Shown: positions 240-56,314 of the stretch, piece by piece
Layout: each line of letters begins with the position of its first letter
How positions within the stretch are numbered: position 1 is the stretch's first letter
From: an uncultured cyanobacterium
GTDB lineage: Bacteria > Cyanobacteriota > Cyanobacteriia > PCC-9006 > JAAUQQ01
Length of the DNA: 64,000 nucleotides
Reading direction: 5' to 3'
Assembly: GCA_963718615.1 (NCBI GenBank)
Contig: OY970368.1
Span: forward strand, 3,872,001-3,936,000
Notes under the pieces: generated by a model
Told to the model about the DNA's origin: nothing
What the model saw: the letters and a program-made list of their open reading frames with translations, nothing else
The model's database searches: none
Translations under genes and position numbers: made by a program

Positions 240-357
240 CCCTGGCATCGAGCTAGATTCACAAGCAGTCACCCGCTCACTATTTTCGCCGCAGATGTGT
301 TTCACAACCGAGTTCGGGATGGGTCGGAGTGGTTCCACATCGCCATTGACACCAGGA
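240..357 (-). rRNA. rrf: 5S rRNA
   Basis: Reverse complement reads TCCTGGTGTC...CCCATCCCGAACTCGGTTGTGAAAC...GATGCCAGG, with complementary termini. Confidence 0.95.
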
Positions 358-472
358 ATGCTGTTGGGTCTGTTGGCCAGAACCCAGAAGGCTGCATAGA
401 GAATCTTTAACGAAATGAATGGGCATGCGGTTCTTAACATCACCACATCTTCAACACCCTCTCCACTGATTG

Positions 473-3354
<2,882 letters not shown>

Positions 3355-3617
3355 TCTTCTCAATCACTCCCTTTCACTACTCACATGCTTCACTCTCATC
3401 TACACAACCAACTTCCCTAAATATTCTCTAGAAAAATCTGTTGCTCAACTCAAATCCACACATCTCATAGCTTCCAGTCATCATTGACTTCAGTCTCTTG
3501 GTGTCTGTGTATCTCTCATCCTCGCTTCTTCTTCTTCTCTGGTCTCGCTCTTACACTCAACCTCTGATGAATTAGCAACGCTAAATGAGTTCGATACTAC
3601 CCATTCATCTCTTTCTC

Positions 3618-3637
3618 TATGCAGTTTTCTAGGTTCT
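3618..3637 (-). promoter_or_regulatory. ITS boxA antitermination/processing element
   Basis: Minus strand AGAACCTAGAAAACTGCATA, the typical cyanobacterial ITS boxA; a complementary stretch lies 3' of 23S (~381-399). Confidence 0.6.
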
Positions 3638-3770
3638 TTCACTGGACTAATTGCCCAGCATCCTCATTGCTACCTTTCACTTCATGCTCAACACAAACTA
3701 TACATACAATAGCCTGTTGCTCATCAAACTACTCTTCGCAATCTAGGTGCTAAACTCTAATCCCTCTCAG

Positions 3771-3843
3771 TGGAGGTTAGCGGACTTGAACCGCTGACAT
3801 CCTGCTTGCAAAGCAGGCGCTCTACCAACTGAGCTAAACCCCC
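3771..3843 (-). tRNA. tRNA-Ala(TGC)
   Basis: Cloverleaf GGGGTTTAGCTCAG...CTTTGCAAG...GTTCAAGTCC...CTCCA in the 16S-23S ITS. Confidence 0.97.
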
Positions 3844-3861
3844 AAACACCTTTGGAGAAGG

Positions 3862-3935
<74 letters not shown>

Positions 3936-4174
3936 TTAACTCTTATCTATACAACTATCACTCACTACCTTGATCTCTCAATTAGCTCATGACTCATCTC
4001 TAGATAAAATCAGTCCCTAAACAGATCTGAAAGCTTTACTCGCCCCACTCATCACTCATCCTATCTCTCAATACAATGAACTCTGAATGGCCGAAATCCT
4101 CGAACGACCTTAGAGTGACCTCTCACAACTCGGCAATACTATTGCGCCGATGTCATAAGGGCTAGGTCTCCCTT

Positions 4175-5663
<1,489 letters not shown>

Positions 5664-5934
5664 GTAAACTTAAGTCCCGTGAACACAGTCTCTCAACTAC
5701 ATCCACTCAACTCAGCTCGAAAAGCTCAGCAAACCCTATTCGCTAAAATAGAACTCACCTTCTCAATCCGGCACCAGATATTCTCTATCCGGTCCTTGTC
5801 CCAAAACTCTGACATTAATTGCCAAAGCTCTTCTTTTTCTTGACGAGGACTTCTGGCTTATAAAGCTCTCAATCTATTTCTCTGTCTAGGTTCTGGCACT
5901 TTCCGGTGAGCTCCGCTCCCCTCAGCGCTTTACT

Positions 5935-31181: not shown

Positions 31182-33887
31182 CTAAATCATATTCTTTTCC
31201 CCGAAGAAACCCAATTGTTCTATTCCATCCTCCTGAACTCTACTACTTTTTGGCTTACCAGAATGCCCTTCATCCTTGCGTAGGCCCACCGCAATTTTGC
31301 TGTGCTTTTCAATGCGCGCCATCACCTGTCGCGCCCGCTGAATCACAGACTTGGGTAAACCCGCTAAGCGAGCCGCTTCGATACCGTAGGATTTATCCGC
31401 GCCCCCCGGTTGAACCTGGTGCAAAAAGATGATTTGGTCATCCAGCTCTTTGACCACCACTTGAAAATTAGCCACATTGGGCAGGATGGAGGCGATTTCA
31501 TTCATCTCGTGATAGTGGGTGGCGAAGATCGTGCGCGATCGCAATTCCGTCGCAATGTATTCTGCCACGGACCAAGCAATCGATAATCCATCAAACGTCG
31601 CCGTACCCCGCCCAATTTCGTCGAGTAACACCAGGGAACGCGCCGTAGCGTGGTTGAGAATATTGGCAGTTTCATTCATTTCCACCATAAACGTGGATTG
31701 GCCCGTGGCCAGATCATCGACCGCACCGACGCGGGTGAAAATGCGATCGCAAATCCCCAACCGAGCCGACTTCGCCGGGACAAAGCTTCCCACTTGAGCC
31801 ATCAACTGAATCAACCCCGTTTGACGCAGATAACAGCTTTTGCCGCTAGCATTTGGCCCCGTCAACACAATCAAATCCGGGGCGTTCTCATCCCGTTCGT
31901 CTCGGTCCAAGGCATATCCCAAGCGAGTCGAATTGGGTACAAAGAATCCGGTGGGCATGGATTTTTCAACCACGGGGTGGCGGCCATCGATAATCGCGAT
32001 CGCCCGATTTTCAGTCATTTCAGGACGGCAATACCCTTGGTAAACCGCAACCTCCGCCAGGGCTGCCAACACATCCGCCGCCGCCACCGCTTGCGCCACG
32101 CCACGAATCAGTTCGCTACGCAATCCTACCTCTTCCCGTAACCCCACAAAAATATCGTATTCAATTTGATTGAGCGTATCTTGGGCATTGAGAATGCGGT
32201 TTTCCCGGTCCTTCAAATCCGGCGTAATATAACGCTCTTCATTCGTTAACGTTTGCTTACGAATGTAGTCCTCGGGAATCTGAACCTGGATACTTTTGGC
32301 TCGGGTGATGCTGATGTAATAGCCAAAGGTTTTGTTATAGCCGACCTTGAGCGAAGAGACACCCGTTCGTTCTCGTTCCGTGGTTTCGAGATTGGCGATC
32401 CATTGGCGATCGCCCTCCACCTGCGCCCGAAAGTCATCTAAATTAGTATTAATCCCCGGTCGAATCAGTCCTCCTTCCGTCAACAAAAGCGGTGGCGAAT
32501 CCACCAGATGCTGATGCAATTTCTGACCGAGCTGCTCCAAAACAGATGGCACCTGCTGGAGATGCTTGAGATAGGGCGAGGTGCATTGACTCACCAACTG
32601 GGCCAGCTCCGGTAAGCGGGCGAGGGAATCGGCCAAGGCTACTAAATCCCTCGCATTGGCCGTGCCCGAGCCCGCTCGTCCCGTGAGTCGCTCTAAATCG
32701 TAAATCTCCCGCAGGAGGCTCCGCAGAGCCTGTCGCAAACTGCCCTTGCTCACCAATTCTTGAATGGTTTCCTGACGCGCCAGAATGCCCCGACGATCGA
32801 GCAGGGGCTGAAGCAACCACCGCCGCAGCGCCCGTCCGCCCATGGTGGTCATGGTTTGGTCTAGTGCCCACAGGAGCGAACCAAAGAACGTCCCATCCCG
32901 CACGGTTTGGGTAATTTCAAGATTGCGGCGGGTTTGATGATCAAGGATGAGAAACTCCGTCAGTTGATAGGTATGCAGCGGTTGTAGCTGCACCGTTATT
33001 TCTCGCTGGGTATCTTCTAGGTAGTCGAGCAAGCCCCCCGCCGCCCGCACGGCTAAGGGCAGATGGTCGCAGCCTAAACCTTCCAGGGAGCGGAGTTTGA
33101 AGCGATTGAGTAGACGCGATCGCGCCTCCGCCAACAAAAACCGCGACTGGGGCCGAAAGGTATAGCAAAACTGCGTGGGTAAACAATCGGGAAGATCCGC
33201 TCGCCCTGCAATTTGCTTTTCACCGGGGCGCAACAATCCCACCAGATCCGGCGCATCAATGGGAAACAACACTTCGGAAGGTTGTAGCCGCAAGAGTTCC
33301 TGGGAAAGCTGTTCTAAATCCGAGGCTTGGACCGTCAAAAACTCTCCCGTAGAAATATCGGCGTAGGCTAACCCCCAATGTTTTTTTTCAACCACAACCG
33401 CCGCTAAAAAATTATTGCGTCGGGCATTGAGCATGCCGTCTTCTAGCACCGTTCCCGGCGTGATCACCCGCGTAATCTCTCGCCGCACGAGGCCCTGAGC
33501 CTGGGAGGCCTCTTCCACCTGGTCACAAATTGCCACGGCATAGCCCTTTTCCACGAGCTGAGCGGCATAGCGATCGAGGGCATGGTAAGGAATCCCGGAC
33601 ATGGGCACCTTGCCCACCGCTTTGCCTGCGGCCTTGGCGGTCAGGACCAGCTCTAGCTCCCGCGAAATGGTAATTGCGTCTTCAAAGAAGCACTCATAAA
33701 AATCTCCCATGCGATACAGCAGCAACGCACTGGGGTTCTGTGCCTTGGTCTCGACATAGTGGCGCATACTGGGGGTGAGCAAATCCCAGTCCACGGCACG
33801 AGAGTTGTCGTATTTGACCTCGTGCTTTACCCGATAATCGGGCAGATCAGGCGGCTGGGGCAGATTGTCAGCGGGCACTTGGGTCAT
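31182..33887 (-). CDS. mutS: DNA mismatch repair protein MutS
   Basis: [54 protein letters not shown]. Confidence 0.97.
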
Positions 33888-34099: not shown

Positions 34100-34681
34100 A
34101 TGAAATACCCTCTGCAACTGAAATTCAAGTGGTCTCTCTCGACCCAGATCGAAGTAACGGATGAGACGGGAAAACTCGTCTTTTTTGTACGCCAGAAAAT
34201 GTTTAAGCTGAAGGAAGCGATCGGCGTTTTTGCCGATGAAAAACGAACCCAGCTTAGATACGAAATTAAAGCCGATCGCATTATTGATTTTTCTGCTCGT
34301 TATAATTTCTCAGATGCCAACGGTCGCGTCATTGGCGCAGTCAAACGCCGGGGATTGCGCTCCATTTGGCGGGCACATTATGACATTTTCCAGGGCGATG
34401 CCGTAGCCTTTACGATTACGGAAAAGGATCCTTGGGTAAAGGTTGTTGATTCTCTTTTTGCTCAAATTCCCATTGCGGGCTTATTTACTGGTTTTGTCTT
34501 CAATCCCACCTACTTGGTCAGTCGCCCCGATGGCAAAGTGGTCATGCGTTTGGAAAAGAAGCCTGCTTTCTTTTCTCGCATTTTTCTGGTCAAGCAGGTC
34601 GACGAGTTGGTCAATCAGGAAGAAGCACAGGTACTTTTGAGTTTGATGATGATGCTGTTGATGGAGAGAAGTCGCGGTTAG
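34100..34681 (+). CDS. LURP-one/scramblase (tubby C-terminal-like) family protein
   Basis: VRQKMFKLKEAI, IKADRIIDFSARY, GAVKRRGLRSIWRAHY beta-rich pattern. Confidence 0.7.
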   Translation: MKYPLQLKFKWSLSTQIEVTDETGKLVFFVRQKMFKLKEAIGVFADEKRTQLRYEIKADRIIDFSARYNFSDANGRVIGAVKRRGLRSIWRAHYDIFQGDAVAFTITEKDPWVKVVDSLFAQIPIAGLFTGFVFNPTYLVSRPDGKVVMRLEKKPAFFSRIFLVKQVDELVNQEEAQVLLSLMMMLLMERSRG

Positions 34682-35010
34682 CGGCGCTGACCGGCTAAAG
34701 GGTGATGGGTGCTGAAAGCTTTATAAACTCAAGGCACTCAACACCGTAAATTCGTTGATCACGCCTTCAGAAGACAGTGCTCGCCTTCCACGAACCTGAA
34801 GTTCGCCAATTGACTGACTTCGGTACTGGTCAATCAAATCCAGATGGGGCGATCGCCCACCCTTCTGCCAATTCACCTACTCATCAAATGGTCTAACGCG
34901 AGAACCAGAAAATTGTCAGCGTTTTCTTCAGAGTTTAGAGCGCTGAGGCGTTGGTGAAGATTTTGTAATTTTCTACGCTGGGTCGAAGAGAATAATATTA
35001 TACTGAGACA

Positions 35011-35213
35011 TGCCTGATAATACCTGAACAGGGGTGTTATCGGGCGTCGCTGCTGGGATAATACCTGGAAACGGGTTGTTATCATGCAGCTTTGCCTGAT
35101 AATACCCAACAGGGGGTGTTATTCAGCATGATTGCCTGGATAACTTGCTGTGACTAGGGATTATACGGCGTTGGCGCTTGAAAATACCGGAAGGAGGGAG
35201 TTATCAGGCATCG
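35011..35213. repeat. Five tandem ~41-bp palindromic units (TGCCTGATAA-N16/17-TTATCRGGCR)
   Basis: Units start at 35011, 35051, 35093, 35133 and 35175; arms are imperfect reverse complements. Confidence 0.85.
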
Positions 35214-35236
35214 TGCATGAGAATAAGTTGTTAGCT
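35214..35236 (+). other. Putative attI-like primary recombination site (crossover G35230/T35231)
   Basis: TGCATGAGAATAAGTTG|TTAGCT; GTTAGCTT matches the reverse complement of the downstream attC R'' AGGCTAAC at 7 of 8 positions. Confidence 0.6.
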
Positions 35237-35364
35237 TGATAGCCATTTGTAGGAATGCTTCTGCTAGCTTTCTTGCAAATGTTGAAGTAGTTTTAGATGA
35301 ATAGTTAGAGCAATTAGGCTAAAATCAGGCTGTTTAATCAATTTTTGTATTGGCGGTGTAATGT

Positions 35365-35733
35365 ATGTCAGAACAGAAGCCTTGGCTTTCTATGCTGTCC
35401 TTATTAGGATTTCAGGTGAATGCAGCTATCGAAAAAGGGCATGGAAATAAAATTTCATTCCATGACATTTACAAGGGCTTAGAAGAAAGAAATTTGTTTG
35501 AACTGTTAGACGAAAAGCTTCCTGGAGTTTTAGATCTCAGTCTTTTCCTTGAACGTAACGAGGGAGCTTCCCTTGAGCAGCGAGATGGACTTCTAAATGC
35601 TTTAAGCGATGCTGCGTCAGGTATGGAGGGAAGAGAAAGAAGAAAATATGGTATTGAGAGTTCAGGTTTGTCTTTACTGATGGCTTATATTTTAGAGGCG
35701 ATCCAGCAAGAATATTGGGTAAGTGCTAGATAG
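35365..35733 (+). CDS. Hypothetical protein (gene cassette 1)
   Basis: 122-aa AT-rich ORF between the attI-like site and attC1. Confidence 0.75.
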   Translation: MSEQKPWLSMLSLLGFQVNAAIEKGHGNKISFHDIYKGLEERNLFELLDEKLPGVLDLSLFLERNEGASLEQRDGLLNALSDAASGMEGRERRKYGIESSGLSLLMAYILEAIQQEYWVSAR

Positions 35734-35818
35734 TTACTGCGTGTAATTTGACACACCTTGGAGATAATTGAAGGCAACGTAGGTATGCAATTGAAAGAGA
35801 AGATCGTTACAAAGCACA

Positions 35819-35906
35819 GGCTAACAAACCCAATGCACACCGACCGCCGAGAGATTATCGGTTAGAGTTCAAAGTTATTTGTGGCGGGTGATTGGGAACG
35901 TTATGC
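35819..35906 (+). mobile_element. Integron attC site (attC1)
   Basis: R'' GGCTAAC, 5 nt, L'' CAAT[G]CAC ... L' GTGATTG, 5 nt, R' GTTATGC; extra-helical G at 35835; inner stem CCGCC/GGCGG. Confidence 0.85.
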
Positions 35907-35994
35907 CGCAAGTCCTTGGTGGGGGCAGTTCTTAAGGCTTATCTTCTAGTAGCCAGAGCTAAAATACTGAAAAGTTATTGATTTAGGGACAAGA

Positions 35995-37215
35995 ATGGTT
36001 GACGGAATAGATGAAAACCAGAGAAACTATTGGAACCAGTCCTCGGTAGAGAGGGGCTTATTAGATCTATCTGTTGTACTCTCAACCCGTGATATTACCG
36101 CTGGTAATCAATTTGCAATCTTTGTTTTAGTTAAAAATCCTTTTGATAAACCAGTTTGGATACGCCAAGTACATGTAAGTTTACCTAGTGAACTTAAATT
36201 GGCAAATTTTCTAGAAAAGCAGAGCAAGAACTCTAAACGTAAAAATGAAACAAGAAAAAATCTGGAAAGGTTGAGGGAAGAGAAAAGAGTTCGACTAGAA
36301 GCTAAGATCAATCTTCTAAATCAAGAAATCAAGAAAGTAGTTAAAGGTTTAGAGAGTAGTAAATCTCTAGAAGAATCAGATAAAAACTTTTTATACAAAA
36401 TAGAGTCACGGTTAGCAGAAGTAAAGCAGGAGTTGGAATCCCTGAATGAAGCAGATGAGGCAAGAATTTATATTGATGGCAAAGCGGCTGTAAGCAACTT
36501 TAAGGTTGTTTCTAGGCGACCCAGAATTTATATTGATAATGCTTCAGCCGTTTCTTATCTTGATGTCTACGATCCTGAATCTTTCCAAGAGGTGTCTGCC
36601 CAAGCAAGAACAGTAGCTTTAGAGAGTTCTCTTCCAAGGAATACAGCTTTACAACCCGGCAGCACTGCCGTTTATACAGCAGTTTTGTATGTTGAAAAAT
36701 CTCTTATTTTTACCCCGTCACATTATCGCTTGCAATTTAATGTTAATTATAGTTTTCATTCCAAAAAGAAGGGTTTGTTAGAGGAAACGACTTCTCGAGG
36801 TAGTTATGAGGAGGGAGAGGAAGGAATATTTACAAACACAGTGGCTCATGAAATATCAATCAGACCTTCAGTTTATTCGGTAATTATTGGAGCAGGTTTA
36901 GGAGGCTTTACAGGTTCCGTTGCTCGCTTGCTTCAAATTACGCCTATAGAGAAGTGGCAAGCATTTTCAAACGTAGATACTTTTACTTCTTTGATTGCTG
37001 TTACGGTTGCAGTAATACTCAGTGGCATTGCAGTTGTGTTTATGGCAAGGAAGTCAGAAGCGCAATCATTTGTATCAGTAGAGGATTTTTGGGGTGGGCT
37101 ATTGATTGGTTTTCTTGTTGGATATACTGGGACTTCCTTCTTTGAGCAGTTAACAGGCGTTACGAATCCGACAATAGTTAATCCAACACCAAGGGTTTCA
37201 CCTTTGCCACAGTAA
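35995..37215 (+). CDS. Hypothetical membrane protein (gene cassette 2)
   Basis: 406-aa AT-rich ORF after attC1; coiled-coil insert and three C-terminal hydrophobic segments. Confidence 0.8.
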   Translation: MVDGIDENQRNYWNQSSVERGLLDLSVVLSTRDITAGNQFAIFVLVKNPFDKPVWIRQVHVSLPSELKLANFLEKQSKNSKRKNETRKNLERLREEKRVRLEAKINLLNQEIKKVVKGLESSKSLEESDKNFLYKIESRLAEVKQELESLNEADEARIYIDGKAAVSNFKVVSRRPRIYIDNASAVSYLDVYDPESFQEVSAQARTVALESSLPRNTALQPGSTAVYTAVLYVEKSLIFTPSHYRLQFNVNYSFHSKKKGLLEETTSRGSYEEGEEGIFTNTVAHEISIRPSVYSVIIGAGLGGFTGSVARLLQITPIEKWQAFSNVDTFTSLIAVTVAVILSGIAVVFMARKSEAQSFVSVEDFWGGLLIGFLVGYTGTSFFEQLTGVTNPTIVNPTPRVSPLPQ

Positions 37216-37261
37216 TATTTAATTATAATGCTATGAAGATGTTTACTACTTTGGATTCAAA

Positions 37262-37271
37262 GCGGCATAAT
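37262..37271 (+). mobile_element. Truncated attC2 (R'' half only)
   Basis: GCGGCATAA is the exact reverse complement of TTATGCCGC that begins cassette 2 (35901-35909); remainder missing. Confidence 0.6.
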
Positions 37272-37282
37272 CGGGATAGGGA

Positions 37283-37498
37283 ATGCGATTCGTTGCAGAT
37301 GAATAACGGTGCAAGCCCGTAAATAACTCTGCCAGCTTGGCTTCCAAACATGAAGCACTCTCAAGAGCTGAACTGTCCTCTTGATGAGGGTGAAAGTCCC
37401 TTCCATCAAACTCGGATGTGACTCCTGATCTACCCACGATGACCCGACTCGGAATTCGGGAGGTCGAAGCTGGGAGCAGGGCGCAATCAGACACTCAT
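37283..37498 (+). mobile_element. 5' fragment (domain I) of a group II intron
   Basis: Starts ATGCGATTCGTT (GUGYG-like); hairpins ACGGTGCAAGCCCGT and TTGATGAGGGTGAAAGTCCCTTCCATCAA; no domain V/VI or RT ORF seen. Confidence 0.6.
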
Positions 37499-37700
37499 TA
37501 GACCTCTTGCATGAATGCTAAACAGCGTTCTGGTCGAGTTCCAAATTGTAGAGGGAAGCAATCAGGTTAAAGCGAAAGCCAAATCCAAAGTCCTGTTGCC
37601 GTCCTTTTCCATAAACCGTGCACAGAATCTTGAGCGTCATCAAGTCGATGACCACCTACACCATCAGCGTATGCTTACTGTTATTGGCAAGACGTTCAAA
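37499..37700 (-). mobile_element. Internally deleted IS5-family (ISL2-like) remnant
   Basis: Terminal IR-like TAGACCTCTTGCAT at 37499; minus frame KHTLMV*VVIDLMTLKILCTVYGKGRQQDF fused to FGFRFNLIASLYNLEL. Confidence 0.7.
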
Positions 37701-37757
37701 CCTCCCTGGTTTGATTCCACTGTAACGACAAAATTCGGCAGGAATGAAAACAGCTCA

Positions 37758-38363
37758 TTACCAAATTCGATCCAGACCCAGAACAAATCCCGGCATCACC
37801 TCACCACAATCGATCGAACTGGGTGACTCCAACACCACCGCATCCTGTCCAGGGCGATAAATCTCAACCTGTTGACTCTGAGGATCGATTAACAGCCCCA
37901 ATCTCACCCCCAGCCGTCGATACTCCGCCATCTTCTCCTGCAACAATTTCAAATTATCCGTCGCCGACCGCAACTCAATCACAAAATCCGGCACAACCGG
38001 AATAAACCCAACAATGTCCACGCCCGCCAGTCGTGACTTCTCAATCCAAGACACATCCGGCGACATCTTCCCGCCCCCGCCCGCGATAAAATCATAGCCC
38101 GTCGATGAGTCAAATGTTTCGCCCAGATTAGTTTGGCGATTCCAAATCTCAACATCAGTTCCTAGACTCATATTTCTTTTGCCACTTTCACCACCCGTAG
38201 GAGGCATGACAATCAACTCTCCATCTTTTGTTAATTCCAGGCGCAACTCAGGATTATCCAAGCAAAGCTGGTCAAAGTATTCTGGGGTTACAGTGAGCTT
38301 GACATGGCTAACATTGAGTAACAGCGCATCAACCGATGATGTCGGAGCCGTAACCATGGTCAT
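37758..38363 (-). CDS. Uma2/DUF820 family endonuclease
   Basis: ELTKDGELIVMPP, FDSSTG, SPDVSW, PDFVIELRS, GVRLGLLIDP. Confidence 0.9.
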   Translation of the reverse strand: MTMVTAPTSSVDALLLNVSHVKLTVTPEYFDQLCLDNPELRLELTKDGELIVMPPTGGESGKRNMSLGTDVEIWNRQTNLGETFDSSTGYDFIAGGGGKMSPDVSWIEKSRLAGVDIVGFIPVVPDFVIELRSATDNLKLLQEKMAEYRRLGVRLGLLIDPQSQQVEIYRPGQDAVVLESPSSIDCGEVMPGFVLGLDRIW

Positions 38364-38449
38364 ATAACCTCCAAACGCCTTTGGGAGCGAGTTATAGCAC
38401 TTCTATCCTATCATTTAGGCTAGAACGAGCTCCCCCCCCAAGCCCCCAG

Positions 38450-38577
38450 CCCCAGCCAGCAAGTCAACTTTCGCCCATGACTCTTGTCCGACATCTTCAA
38501 TCCATCCATTAGCGCCCTCAACGCCACCGCCCCCCTAGCTCACCCCCAAACAACTCCAAGAATAGTTGCTTAGGCAT
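38450..38577 (-). pseudogene. Possible remnant of a DNA cytosine-5 methyltransferase N-terminus
   Basis: LELFGG (motif I-like) then, in another frame, EDV...KVDLLAG (pre-motif IV-like); no PCQ; weak. Confidence 0.3.
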
Positions 38578-38710
38578 TAAACTTATCTGCGTCCAGTGAG
38601 CGTGACCGTTATTTTTTTGGGCCGCTCATGGGGCTTCCCCCGTTCCATCACAATCAGGTTATGCTAAGACTGTTGCAGGGCCTACACTTTGATATTCTGG
38701 AGATGCGTTT

Positions 38711-39322
38711 ATGGCAATTGCCTCTTCGCCTTCATCAGCGATCGCCAGACAAAAACTAACCCTAGCGGAGTTCCTAGATTATCAGGATGGGACTGACAAT
38801 CGCTATGAACTGGTAGAGGGGGAGTTACAACAGATGGCCATAGGGACAGGCTTGCATGGAGCCATCATAGAGTTTATCAATGATGAATTTCGCAATGAAA
38901 TCCGACGATTACAGCGACCCTGGACATCGAAGCAAGCTGCCGTTGCGATTCAGTCTCCTCGGGGCCGCCGTTGGGAGACCTGTCGTATCCCCGATGTAAC
39001 AGTCTTACCGATAGAACAATGGGAAACACTTTTGTCGAAGCAGGCAGTGATTACGCTAGATCAGCCTGTACCGACTTTGGTAGTGGAGGTGGTGAGCGAA
39101 TCTACGAAGGCTGAAGACTATCGGGCCAAGCATGCGGAATACGGCGTGTTGGAGATTCCGGAATATTGGATGATTGACCCGTTGGATGAAGTAGTGACGG
39201 TTTGTGTGTTTGAGGATGGAGGCTATACGAATCGACGGTTCGTGGGGGACGAACCCCTTCGGTCTGACATTTTTCCAGAGCTAATCCTCACTGCCGCTCA
39301 AATTCTTTCTGCACGGCGTTAA
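38711..39322 (+). CDS. Uma2/DUF820 family endonuclease
   Basis: YELVEGEL, RIPDVTV, LVVEVVSES, DYRAK..EY, EYWMIDP. Confidence 0.9.
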   Translation: MAIASSPSSAIARQKLTLAEFLDYQDGTDNRYELVEGELQQMAIGTGLHGAIIEFINDEFRNEIRRLQRPWTSKQAAVAIQSPRGRRWETCRIPDVTVLPIEQWETLLSKQAVITLDQPVPTLVVEVVSESTKAEDYRAKHAEYGVLEIPEYWMIDPLDEVVTVCVFEDGGYTNRRFVGDEPLRSDIFPELILTAAQILSARR

Positions 39323-39374
39323 TTAGATATGCCACTCTGGTTAGATATCGTAAACGCAGATTAGGGTCTCTAAG

Positions 39375-39959
39375 TTACCAAATTCTCTGCAAGTTCAAAA
39401 CAAACCCTGGCAACTCCGGCTCTGCGCTGACCTGATCCGGTTTCTGAAGGCAGACCACATTCTGCCCTGGACGATAGACATACACATTGTAATGTTTTCG
39501 ATCGATTAAAAACCCCAACCGACAACCCGGTTCCGCTAAATACTCCTCCATCTTTTCTTGCAAAGGCTTGAGATTATCCGACGGGGACCGCAGTTCCACA
39601 ACAAAATCGGGACAGATAGGAGCAAATCGCGATCGCAACTCCGGCTCCACACTATGCCAACGCTCCAGCGTTATCCAAGCCGCATCGGGAGAACGGTCTG
39701 CGCCCGTTGAAAGTTTAAATCCGGCACTAGAGCTAAATACAATTCCAGTTCCGTCTTGTTCTGCCCAGGCCCATAGCGGCCCAATGATTCCTGCTTCGCG
39801 ATGACCGGATTCTGAACCAACAGGGGACATAATTGAAATGACTCCATGGCGATCGCGCTCAATCCGCAGTTCCGAGTTTTCCTGACAAAACTCAAAAAAT
39901 TGTTGCTCCGTCATCCGCAGGGACGTGGGAAATTTTACGGAAAGAGAAGAAGAGAGCAT
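39375..39959 (-). CDS. Uma2/DUF820 family endonuclease
   Basis: FSSSAGF, RSPDAAW, CPDFVVELRSPSD, KMEEY. Confidence 0.9.
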   Translation of the reverse strand: MLSSSLSVKFPTSLRMTEQQFFEFCQENSELRIERDRHGVISIMSPVGSESGHREAGIIGPLWAWAEQDGTGIVFSSSAGFKLSTGADRSPDAAWITLERWHSVEPELRSRFAPICPDFVVELRSPSDNLKPLQEKMEEYLAEPGCRLGFLIDRKHYNVYVYRPGQNVVCLQKPDQVSAEPELPGFVLNLQRIW

Positions 39960-55526: not shown

Positions 55527-55926
55527 AGTTCTTTATATGGCTATCGTCAGAACTCACGAATCGAGAAACGCATTGCTCCGACGCCCCTGATGCAAGAAGG
55601 ATCTGAACTCCTAACTACTAAAACAGGGCAACCTGCTTTTAAAAGGGATCAGGACCCAGTCTTCGCGGAATCTACACGATTAATCCTGGCTATCTGAAAA
55701 AACGATAAACCGCTAATCGCATTGTTCCCGAGTTTTCTACGCATCCATCACCCCTCCATGGTAACCGTACACTGTGTTTCTCTTGTTACAAGTACGGTCT
55801 ATTGGTGGCCTATTCTAGAATGCGATCGCAGGGCTGGCGAAGGTCTTTGGCCCCTGAGGAGAGCGAACCCGCACCACCCCCTCATCTAGAGCCGGATGGG
55901 TAATGATTCAAACTAAATAATGGAAT

Positions 55927-56314
55927 GGAAAAGTCGGACATAAGCCGGGTTCTGTTCCCCGCTTTCCGAAGAAAACGGAGGGCAGTTATCTATCTGGGAC
56001 AGCGGTTACCCGACGCCTCAAGCGGTGCTCTCATGACGGAACAGGCAAAAGACCAACCCTTGTTCCAACGACCTTGCTCCCAACCGGGGTTTACCGAGCC
56101 AGCACCTCTCAATGCTGCTGGTGCGCTCTTACCGCACCTTTGCACCCTTACCTGTGAAGTCTAGACTTCCATCGGCGGTATGTTTCTGTGGCACTCTCCT
56201 CACGGTCACCCGCACTGGGCGTTACCCAGCAAGTTTGGTCTTTCGGGAGCCCGGACTTTCCTCAGACTGGGTCAGCGATGCCGCCCAGCCCGCAACTGCC
56301 TCGCCAACTTTTCC
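55927..56314 (-). ncRNA. rnpB: RNase P RNA
   Basis: Minus strand GAGGAAAGTCCGGGCTCCC ... AACAGAACCCGGCTTATGTC; paired termini GGAAAAGTT/GACTTTTCC. Confidence 0.96.

What the first reader, a model, noticed from the sequence alone, without database searches (positions are those of the whole stretch)
35214..37271. Integron-type gene cassette array without a neighbouring integrase
Seen: a canonical attC at 35819-35906 (R''-5-L''[extra G]...L'-5-R'). Both cassettes show the circular-intermediate signature. Cassette 1 begins GTTAGCTT and its attC begins AGGCTAAC. Cassette 2 begins TTATGCCGC and ends GCGGCATAA. Each carries a single AT-rich ORF in the same orientation. I recognised no IntI ORF or remnant between 34682 and 35010 or elsewhere in the window. 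Inference: a CALIN-like array that retains its attI and could be serviced in trans, i.e. a satellite capture site in a cyanobacterial chromosome near mutS.
Basis: partly seen in the sequence, partly recalled or inferred. Interest (0 to 1): 0.8.

Follow-up and report, generated by a model that had tools for sequence, protein, structure and literature searches.

The report
Integrase-less integron array with attI
This is a genuine but decayed gene-capture site (an integron docking site followed by two captured gene cassettes, with no recombinase gene beside it) in a cyanobacterial chromosome, and it is an ordinary example of a kind already known.

Summary

- **attC.** Window 35819-35906 is a complete attC. 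It belongs to a family of about 25-32 copies in this genome. Its stem is backed by compensatory changes.
- **attI.** Window 34943-35230 is one copy of a repeat that elsewhere abuts intI start codons. The copies stay alike up to G|TT (35230|35231) and then diverge completely.
- **Cassettes.** Both cassettes (GC 0.38-0.40, genome 0.52) recur in other organisms, and the likeness starts or stops at the predicted crossover points.

- Cassette 2 keeps only the R'' box of its attC. The rest is replaced by a 229-bp repeat derived from group II introns.
- With one intact attC, the locus misses the formal CALIN threshold.
- The window has no tyrosine recombinase. The genome has one intact intI 2.96 Mb away and at least four decayed ones, the nearest 47 kb upstream.

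Service in trans today is untested. The surviving IntI is only 64% identical to the lineage that owned this attI.

The scan has found the same kind before: another copy of this attI in this genome, and arrays in several other cyanobacteria.

The parts
34943..35230 (+). attI region (genome repeat 'H'). About 12 core-like sites (GATAAY / GTTATC) alternate in orientation roughly every 20 bp from 35016 to 35230. The crossover point is G|TT at 35230|35231.
   Evidence: Repeat copies. Alignment of 8 long copies with conservation ending at G|TT. Site positions read. 10-copy alignment.
35231..35900 (+). Cassette 1 (670 bp), carrying ORF1 at 35365-35733 (122 aa, no family).
   Evidence: In metagenome run X5, contigs match 35230-35337 and 35349-35544 with 2 differences each. 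The 43 letters before 35230 are unlike.
35819..35906 (+). Complete attC of cassette 1: R'' GGCTAAC, imperfect L stem with three bulged bases on the 5' arm, R' G|TTATGC.
   Evidence: Models R1 (90.7 bits) and R2 (86.6 bits). Covariation. DNA folds.
35901..37270 (+). Cassette 2, carrying ORF2 at 35995-37215 (406 aa; coiled-coil middle, three hydrophobic C-terminal segments, no family). Its attC is cut off after the R'' box GCGGCATAA (37262-37270).
   Evidence: Comparison with the intact homologous cassette in G067. In run X1 a 1393-nt contig covers exactly 35899-37270.
37269..37497 (+). Repeat 'T' (7 copies in the genome), derived from group II introns. It replaces the rest of cassette 2's attC.
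38545..38614 (+). attC remnant: the 3' arm and R' GTTATTT are kept, the 5' arm is deleted. The array once reached further.
   Evidence: nhmmer E 5.6e-7. Not found by the covariance models.
34683..34790 (+). Repeat 'A' (about 6 copies in the genome), left of the attI region. Role unknown. It may not belong to the integron.
   Evidence: A copy also follows mutS in relative G003. Another copy abuts an intI remnant at C1:4096777.

Best explanation
The stretch is an orphan integron platform. It has a multi-site attI, then two promoter-less, AT-rich cassettes of unknown function in the same orientation.

The array was built by an integron integrase joining the folded attC of a circular cassette to attI at G|TT. 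That reaction leaves each cassette starting with TTRRRY and ending in an attC whose R'' box is complementary to that start.

Cassette 1 is complete. Cassette 2 lost its attC beyond the R'' box when an element derived from group II introns entered there and the rest was deleted.

No integrase is left at this locus.

- Shown: the identity of attI, attC and both cassettes, and their boundaries.
- Inferred: the integrase acted from elsewhere in the genome at some time. Three integrase-less attI copies share a left flank but carry different first cassettes.
- My estimate for today: the locus is mostly a fossil. At most, cassette 1 could still be excised and new cassettes inserted, and only if the one surviving IntI accepts this attI.
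For: 1. attC family.
- 20 copies were aligned.
- In the L stem 90% of cells are paired and 11 of 16 pairs show changes on both sides.
- Over all 23 pairs of the structure, 81% of cells are paired, against 32-43% when the partner is slid and 0 of 500 shuffles as high.
- Model R1 finds 25 places in the genome at E<0.01. All lie in arrays with consistent strand.
- Model R2 finds 32 places at E<=0.1.

2. Link to integrases.
- The H repeat abuts intI starts at C1:3859k, 4713k and 4646k.
- In the listed rows, R1 sites lie within 10 kb of an intI or an intI fragment, on its 5' side and divergent, in at least 10 other genomes. Examples are G014, G065, G149, G024, G048 and G093.

3. attI junction at G|TT.

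4. Cassette 2 in G067, a different family.
- The ORF2 protein there is 93% identical.
- The cassette there starts G|TTATGCC behind a different attC.
- It runs on from ...GCATAA into a complete attC ending GCC-GTTAGGT. The window switches to T at that same point.

5. Metagenome contigs stop or start at 35230, 35899 and 37270.

6. Start/R'' complementarity: 63 of 98 letters against 41.3 for random partners.

7. GC 0.38-0.40 against 0.523 for the genome.

8. An intact IntI exists.
- 443.8 bits against a cut-off of 265.
- It aligns end to end with VchIntIA, PDB 2A3V, E 8e-90.
Against: - IntegronFinder's own attC model could not be run. My models were built from this genome's copies, so the window copy matches them by construction.
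- The R''/R' helix is only 60% paired in the family alignment, partly because of misalignment.
- The first bulged base is G on the top strand, so C on the bottom strand. From memory the canonical bottom-strand base is G.
- The fold of the single site is only moderately better than shuffles: z -2.2 and -2.7.
- No promoter stands out. Seven promoter-like sites were found against 5.9 expected.
- Nothing shows present-day recombination, and no strain of the same species was available to compare.
- The intact IntI is only 64% identical over residues 1-179 to the H-type IntI, and its upstream repeats differ in sequence.
Confidence: 0.9

Rival explanations
1. Active satellite capture site. The locus is serviced now, in trans, by the intact IntI at C1:948635-949606. 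Cassette 1 is excised as a 670-bp circle and new cassettes enter at 35230|35231.
For: - An intact intI is present.
- An attC-like site of the same family sits beside it (24.8 bits with R1; 41 bits with R2).
- Its presumed crossover (..TTTAATG|TTAGCG) resembles ..AATAAGTTG|TTAGC here.
- The window copy of the attI region and the copy at C1:417k are 96-97% identical and both lack intI, yet they carry different first cassettes.
- A 446-bp cassette segment is 96% identical between the intact integron's cassette side and four other arrays.
Against: - No direct sign of recombination. The metagenome contigs come from other organisms.
- The surviving IntI belongs to another lineage, and its upstream palindromes differ in sequence.
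- attI recognition is usually specific to the cognate integrase (established knowledge, not tested here).
- All H-type intI copies are broken.
Confidence: 0.25
2. Block transfer. The attI-cassette-T unit arrived here, or was multiplied, as a block by segmental duplication or transposition. It was not assembled in place.
For: - attI copies at 11 loci and T at 7.
- The 84 bp right of T (37501-37584) recur inverted next to the left end of the attI copy at C1:417814-417897, and also at C1:306585.
- Repeat A sits left of attI here and at C1:4096777.
- Whole cassette segments are shared between arrays at 91-97% identity.
Against: - The copies differ exactly from G|TT onwards. This needs site-specific recombination after any duplication.
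- Cassettes 1 and 2 have no second copy in this genome.
- No transposase and no clear terminal repeats bound the unit.
Confidence: 0.15
3. Not an integron. The hairpin is a REP-like, MITE or terminator repeat, and the ORFs are ordinary chromosomal genes.
For: - The hairpin family is very widespread: 113 of 151 sampled genomes of the class. It is unusually conserved in sequence for attC sites.
- No Rfam family or published model was available to check it against.
Against: - Consistent orientation in arrays downstream of intI genes, in this genome and in others.
- RYYYAAC/GTTRRRY ends, and bulges on one arm only.
- Cassette boundaries at G|TT in three independent comparisons.
Confidence: 0.02

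Closest known systems
CALIN: cluster of attC sites lacking an integron integrase (Cury et al. 2016, PMC4889954; passages read)
   Same: Cassettes with attC and no intI within reach. That paper also found most CALINs without a recognisable intI pseudogene nearby (15 of 279 had one).
   Different: This locus keeps its attI. IntegronFinder cannot search for attI outside classes 1-3. The locus has only one intact attC, below the defined minimum of two.
Decayed sedentary chromosomal integrons of cyanobacteria and other phyla. Integrons are recorded in Cyanobacteria in Ghaly et al. 2021 (PMC8618304; passages read). Xanthomonas examples with dead intI are recalled.
   Same: Chromosomal location, ORFan cassettes, integrase lost or broken, attC sites alike within the lineage.
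   Different: At this locus intI is gone without trace. The same genome holds about 11 attI copies, at least 4 intI wrecks and one intact intI of another lineage.
attI1 of class 1 integrons: L and R plus DR1 and DR2. attIA of Vibrio lacks such repeats (Richard et al. 2022, PMC8946536; passages read).
   Same: The crossover is at G|TT, at the end of an imperfect inverted pair, preceded by extra core-like repeats.
   Different: About 12 sites in alternating orientation every ~20 bp over 215 bp, against four in attI1. Binding by IntI is not shown.
Group IIC-attC introns (Leon et al. 2010, PMC3001079; abstract and introduction passages read)
   Same: Intron material sits between the cassette gene and its attC, mostly in last cassettes. 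In this genome, remnants with a maturase piece lie reversed at R'' boxes.
   Different: T is only 229 bp and chimeric. Its first ~15 letters are the reverse of such an intron's 3' end. The rest is the 5' domain of another group II intron in the same direction as the cassettes. The attC beyond it is missing.
VchIntIA / Vibrio cholerae chromosomal integron (PDB 2A3V)
   Same: The genome's intact IntI aligns over its whole length with it (E 8e-90).
   Different: That IntI is 2.96 Mb from this array and has its own, different attI region.

Membership tests
Integron (complete platform) | intI gene adjacent to attI | tested here: not met
   No TIGR02249 or PF00589 match in the window. No remnant in 34600-35000. 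The nearest match, a broken copy, is at C1:3859645-3860405, 47 kb upstream.
Integron (complete platform) | attI: a conserved site next to intI, ending at the crossover G|TT, after which content varies | tested here: met
   8 long copies were aligned. 7 are conserved to TTG|TT and then unrelated. 5 of the 8 have an intI start or remnant on the other side.
Integron (complete platform) | Cassette promoter Pc in or next to attI | tested here: inconclusive
   The consensus scan gives 7 sites against 5.9 expected by chance. No RNA data are held.
attC site | R'' RYYYAAC and R' GTTRRRY as inverted ends | tested here: met
   GGCTAAC and GTTATGC fit in 6 of 7 letters each. The family consensus is ..CnAAC ... 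GTTAGAC.
attC site | Imperfect L''/L' stem with extrahelical bases on one arm, kept by structure rather than sequence | tested here: met
   16 pairs, 90% of cells paired, 11 pairs with compensatory change. Bulges at three fixed columns of the 5' arm.
attC site | Passes IntegronFinder's attC covariance model | not testable with these tools
   That model is not in Rfam or on the script machine. My own models R1 and R2 were used instead.
attC site | Recombined by an integron integrase as a folded bottom strand | not testable with these tools
   This needs an experiment.
Integron gene cassette | A discrete unit from TT of one G|TT to G of the next, found with different neighbours elsewhere | tested here: met
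   Cassette 2 in G067 lies behind a different attC. X1 and X5 contigs have ends at 35899, 37270 and 35230.
CALIN (IntegronFinder definition) | [quoted passage not shown] | tested here: not met
   One model hit in 64 kb; the next best has E 0.37-0.7. There is also one R''-only stump and one 3' remnant.
Group IIC-attC intron (for repeat T) | Complete intron with RT gene, inserted in the bottom strand at the attC | tested here: not met
   No RT ORF follows any T copy. No Rfam intron hit in 34600-37900. Only the first ~15 letters match the reversed 3' end of the remnants with a maturase piece.

The most novel reading that the evidence does not exclude
The genome runs a distributed integron. About 11 copies of one attI, most or all without a working integrase of their own, act as parallel capture sites. 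They are fed by a single surviving IntI of a different lineage, so cassettes move between loci megabases apart.

The near-identical integrase-less attI copies with different first cassettes would be the footprint of this. So would the cassette segments shared between the intact integron and the orphan arrays.
Probability: 0.2. Interest if true: 0.6.

Novelty: new member of a known kind. Interest (0 to 1): 0.3.

Why it matters
For this locus alone, little. It is a well-preserved example of integron decay, useful for annotation: attI at 34943-35230, two ORFan cassettes, and an intron-derived scar.

Three wider points came out of checking it.
- One attC sequence family is found in 113 of 151 sampled genomes of the cyanobacterial class. 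An integrase above the curated cut-off is found in only 48 of the same 151.
- Cassettes such as ORF2 are shared at 93% protein identity between different families.
- The attI has many more core-like sites than textbook ones.

If orphan attI copies are really served in trans, integrons in these genomes would work as multi-site systems rather than single platforms.

Tried and rejected
- **Rfam.** No family matches in 34600-37900 on either strand at E<=10, apart from chance-level hits. None matches in L013:1-7000.
- **A folded attC at the end of cassette 2.** None found (fold z -0.28; models).
- **The attI repeats as conserved hairpins.** The predicted fold is very stable (z -6.65). On 10 copies, however, the covariation term is +0.67 and only 4 of 67 pairs show compensatory change, and the arms can pair in two registers. 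I therefore read them as alternating sites, not as a proven structure.
- **An IntI remnant left of attI.** None found.
- **T as a complete intron.** No RT ORF. The RNA fold of its minus strand is no better than shuffles (z 0.02).
- **Cargo function.** No Pfam family reached its cut-off. PADLOC gave only weak coiled-coil-type hits. The atlas gave only 'hypothetical protein' clusters, best score 0.89.
- **Strain-level comparison.** The genomes held are one per species, and the nearest are other genera. In G003 mutS is followed by repeat A and then by unrelated DNA.
- **Expression.** No RNA holder is listed.
- **Sequencing runs.** No run holds half of the stretch or more. Only parts of it are found, in other organisms.
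Full report
**What is in the sequence.** The window is C1:3872001-3936000 of a 6.10-Mb single-contig cyanobacterial genome. Between mutS (31182-33887, minus strand) and three Uma2-family genes and cysH lie the following, all on the + strand:
- a 290-bp repeat-rich stretch (34943-35230);
- ORF1 (35365-35733, 122 aa);
- an 88-nt imperfect palindrome (35819-35906);
- ORF2 (35995-37215, 406 aa);
- a 229-bp repeat (37269-37497).

GCGGCATAA is 37262-37270. Both ORFs have no Pfam family above its cut-off. Their cassettes have GC 0.40 and 0.38, against 0.523 for the genome.

**The attC.**
- Taken alone, the site folds as single-stranded DNA only moderately better than shuffles. The bottom strand gives -15.8 kcal/mol, z -2.2. 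The top strand gives -17.0, z -2.7.
- It is, however, one of a family. Iterated nhmmer found 21 copies in the genome. All have RYYYAAC-like and GTTRRRY-like ends.
- On 20 aligned copies (one truncated copy left out), over all 23 pairs of the attC structure, 81% of cells are paired, against 32-43% when the 3' partner is slid by 1-3 columns. None of 500 shuffles reached that value.
- In the 16-pair inner stem 90% of cells are paired, and 11 pairs change on both sides. RNAalifold predicts the same stem on its own.
- Three bases are always bulged on the 5' arm.
- The outer R''/R' helix is only 60% paired, partly because MAFFT misplaced some 5' ends.
- A covariance model of the family (R1) finds 25 places in the genome at E<0.01. 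Five of them were not in the training set, and all lie in runs of consistent strand. A broader model (R2) finds 32 at E<=0.1.
- In the window, both models find only 35819-35906. The next best has E 0.37-0.7.

I could not run IntegronFinder's own model. The window copy was also part of my training set. The independent support is therefore the covariation and the genomic context, not the score.

**The integrase and the attI.**
- The curated integron-integrase model TIGR02249 finds one complete gene at C1:948635-949606: 443.8 bits against a cut-off of 265. It aligns over residues 9-319 with VchIntIA, PDB 2A3V, at E 8e-90.
- The same model finds broken pieces at C1:3859645-3860405, 4712672-4713843, 4646232-4646402 and 1907122-1907298.
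- None is in the window. PF00589 has 5 matches in the genome and none in the window.
- The stretch 34943-35230 is a repeat present at 11 loci. In the copies at 3859k, 4713k and 4646k it abuts the intI start.
- Aligning the 8 long copies shows conservation up to ...GAGAATAAGTTG|TT, followed by unrelated sequence: GTTAGCT, GTTATAC, GTTAGGG, GTTATGC, GTTAGGT, GTTCGAC, GTTAGGT. The eighth copy is degenerate at this end. That is the footprint of attI x attC recombination.
- Five of the 8 copies have an intI start or a remnant of a few codons on the other side. The window copy and those at 417k and 428k have a different left flank and no intI. tblastn of IntI against 34600-35000 finds nothing (best E 1.3).
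- An R1 attC follows the repeat in the same orientation within 4 kb at 8 loci. At a ninth, T follows it.

**Anatomy of the attI.**
- Read, GATAAY-like and GTTATC-like hexamers alternate in orientation about every 20 bp. They start at 35016, 35036, 35057, 35078, 35098, 35118, 35139, 35159, 35180 and 35200. The series closes with GAGAAT at 35219 and GTT|GTTAGC at 35227-35235.
- The predicted RNA fold is very stable (z -6.65). On 10 copies (8 from this genome, 2 from relative G003) the covariation term is +0.67, and only 4 of 67 predicted pairs show compensatory change. I therefore do not claim a conserved hairpin structure.
- The intact intI has four ~25-bp palindromes at ~40-bp spacing in the same position, with a different sequence. 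An attC-like site lies right after them: 24.8 bits with R1 and 41 bits with R2.
My count agrees. Binding by IntI is untested.
- Textbook attI1 has L, R, DR1 and DR2. Vibrio attIA has no such repeats (PMC8946536, passages read).

**The cassettes are mobile units.**
- Within this genome, the first letters of a cassette are complementary to the R'' box at its end. Over all 14 pairs I could define, 63 of 98 letters match, against 41.3 for random partners, and 0 of 20000 draws reach that value.
- The 10 attC pairs alone give 38 of 70 against 27.8, with 33 of 20000 draws as high.
- A first version of this test left out three pairs whose attC follows a repeated cassette. The figures above include them.
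- ORF2 is found in 9 of 401 sampled genomes of the class, counting this one, and in none of the 7 of the same family. In G067, a different family, the protein is 93% identical.
- In G067 the cassette begins G|TTATGCC behind a different attC (60 bits). It runs from ...GCATAA straight into a complete attC ending GCC-GTTAGGT (16 bits with R1).
- The window sequence departs from G067 exactly after GCATAA.
- ORF1 is found in 2 of 401 genomes.
- Contigs of four public runs were laid on 34900-37600.
  - A 1393-nt contig of X1 covers 35899-37270 with 53 differences and nothing else.
  - X5 contigs cover 35230-35337 and 35349-35544 with 2 differences each, with 43 unlike letters before 35230.
  - Many contigs of X1, X3 and X5 match only 35820-35903.
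  - X2 has the attI repeat up to 35239 and T from 37266.
  - These are contigs of other organisms. They show modularity, not activity in this strain.

**The end of cassette 2.**
- T has 7 copies at 83-98% identity. Each starts right after a different RYYYAA.
- In 3 of the 7, the 8-10 letters before T are complementary to the start of the cassette at the nearest upstream att site: 9/10, 9/10 and 8/10. For 4 of the 7 I found no partner within 12 kb.
- The right ends of the copies vary between about 205 and 350 bp.
- The first ~15 letters of T equal the reverse of the 3' end of intron remnants at C1:1008728 and 788864.
- The 1008728 remnant lies reversed after an R''-like box and carries a maturase piece (GIIM, 24.6 bits against a cut-off of 23). 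Its R'' box matches 10 of 10 letters of the start behind an attC-like site 5 kb upstream.
- This matches what is described for group IIC-attC introns: bottom strand, opposite to the cassette genes, between gene and attC, mostly in last cassettes (PMC3001079, passages read).
- The rest of T is homologous to the 5' domain of a different group II intron in the same direction as the cassettes. In G029 and G005 that sequence lies about 350 bp upstream of an RT ORF, which is followed by an RF00029 hit.
- No T copy has an RT ORF, and Rfam finds nothing in T.
- I conclude that T is a chimeric intron scar that replaced the attC. How it spread is unresolved.
- An attC remnant at 38545-38614 shows that the array once went further.

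**How widespread.**
- In 151 genomes sampled evenly from the class, counting this one, R1 matches 113 at E<=0.001.
- TIGR02249 is above its cut-off in 48, and matches at E<=1e-20 in 73.
- Integrons are on record for Cyanobacteria (PMC8618304, passages read).
- My four literature searches listed no paper devoted to cyanobacterial attI or attC families. That is not proof that none exists.
- The scan itself has reported integrase-less or decayed arrays with attI in several other cyanobacteria (e1-7598444, e1-3082226, e1-752590, e1-2500664) and an intron-split attC (e1-3081781). I did not check those notes.

**Verdict.** This is a real, well-delimited orphan integron platform of a known kind.
- Service in trans in the past is a reasonable inference. 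The window and 417k attI copies are 96-97% identical, both lack intI, and they carry different first cassettes.
- Service in trans today is unproven. The surviving IntI is 64% identical to the H-type IntI over residues 1-179.

Noticed in passing
G000:C1:948280-948635 (L012:10281-10636): The one intact intI has four ~25-bp palindromes at ~40-bp spacing upstream. A 117-nt attC-like site follows directly after a G|TTAGCG. This looks like an ORF-less first cassette. Then comes an 874-aa ORF.
   Followed up: partly
G000:C1:3844571-3860405 (L018, L019), 12-27 kb left of the window start: A roughly 15-kb array: broken intI, attI, at least 3 attC sites, an internal duplication, a 2.63-kb insertion sequence present in about 13 near-identical copies in the genome, and T at its end.
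   Followed up: partly
window 37501-37584: The 84 bp right of T recur inverted, directly left of the attI copy at C1:417814-417897, and also at C1:306585-306669. This may mark an old inversion or the end of a larger unit.
   Followed up: partly
G000:C1:2245199-2245612, 3853005-3853420, 3845774-3846186, 4717305-4717585: A non-coding cassette of about 414 bp with an internal 58-bp duplication is present in four arrays at 91-99.8% identity. Part of a neighbouring segment is also found 3.5 kb from the intact intI (944668-945113, 96%).
   Followed up: partly
window 37758-39959: Three Uma2-family (PF05685) genes in a row in alternating orientation, with the attC remnant between the first two.
   Followed up: no
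window 34683-34790: Repeat A (about 6 copies). One copy follows mutS in relative G003 too. Another abuts a 7-codon intI remnant at C1:4096777-4096872. Nature unknown.
   Followed up: partly
window 240-5665, 55926-56311: A ribosomal RNA operon with two tRNAs, and RNase P RNA (Rfam gathering hits). Ordinary.
   Followed up: no
Integron decay looks like the rule in this class.
   Followed up: partly
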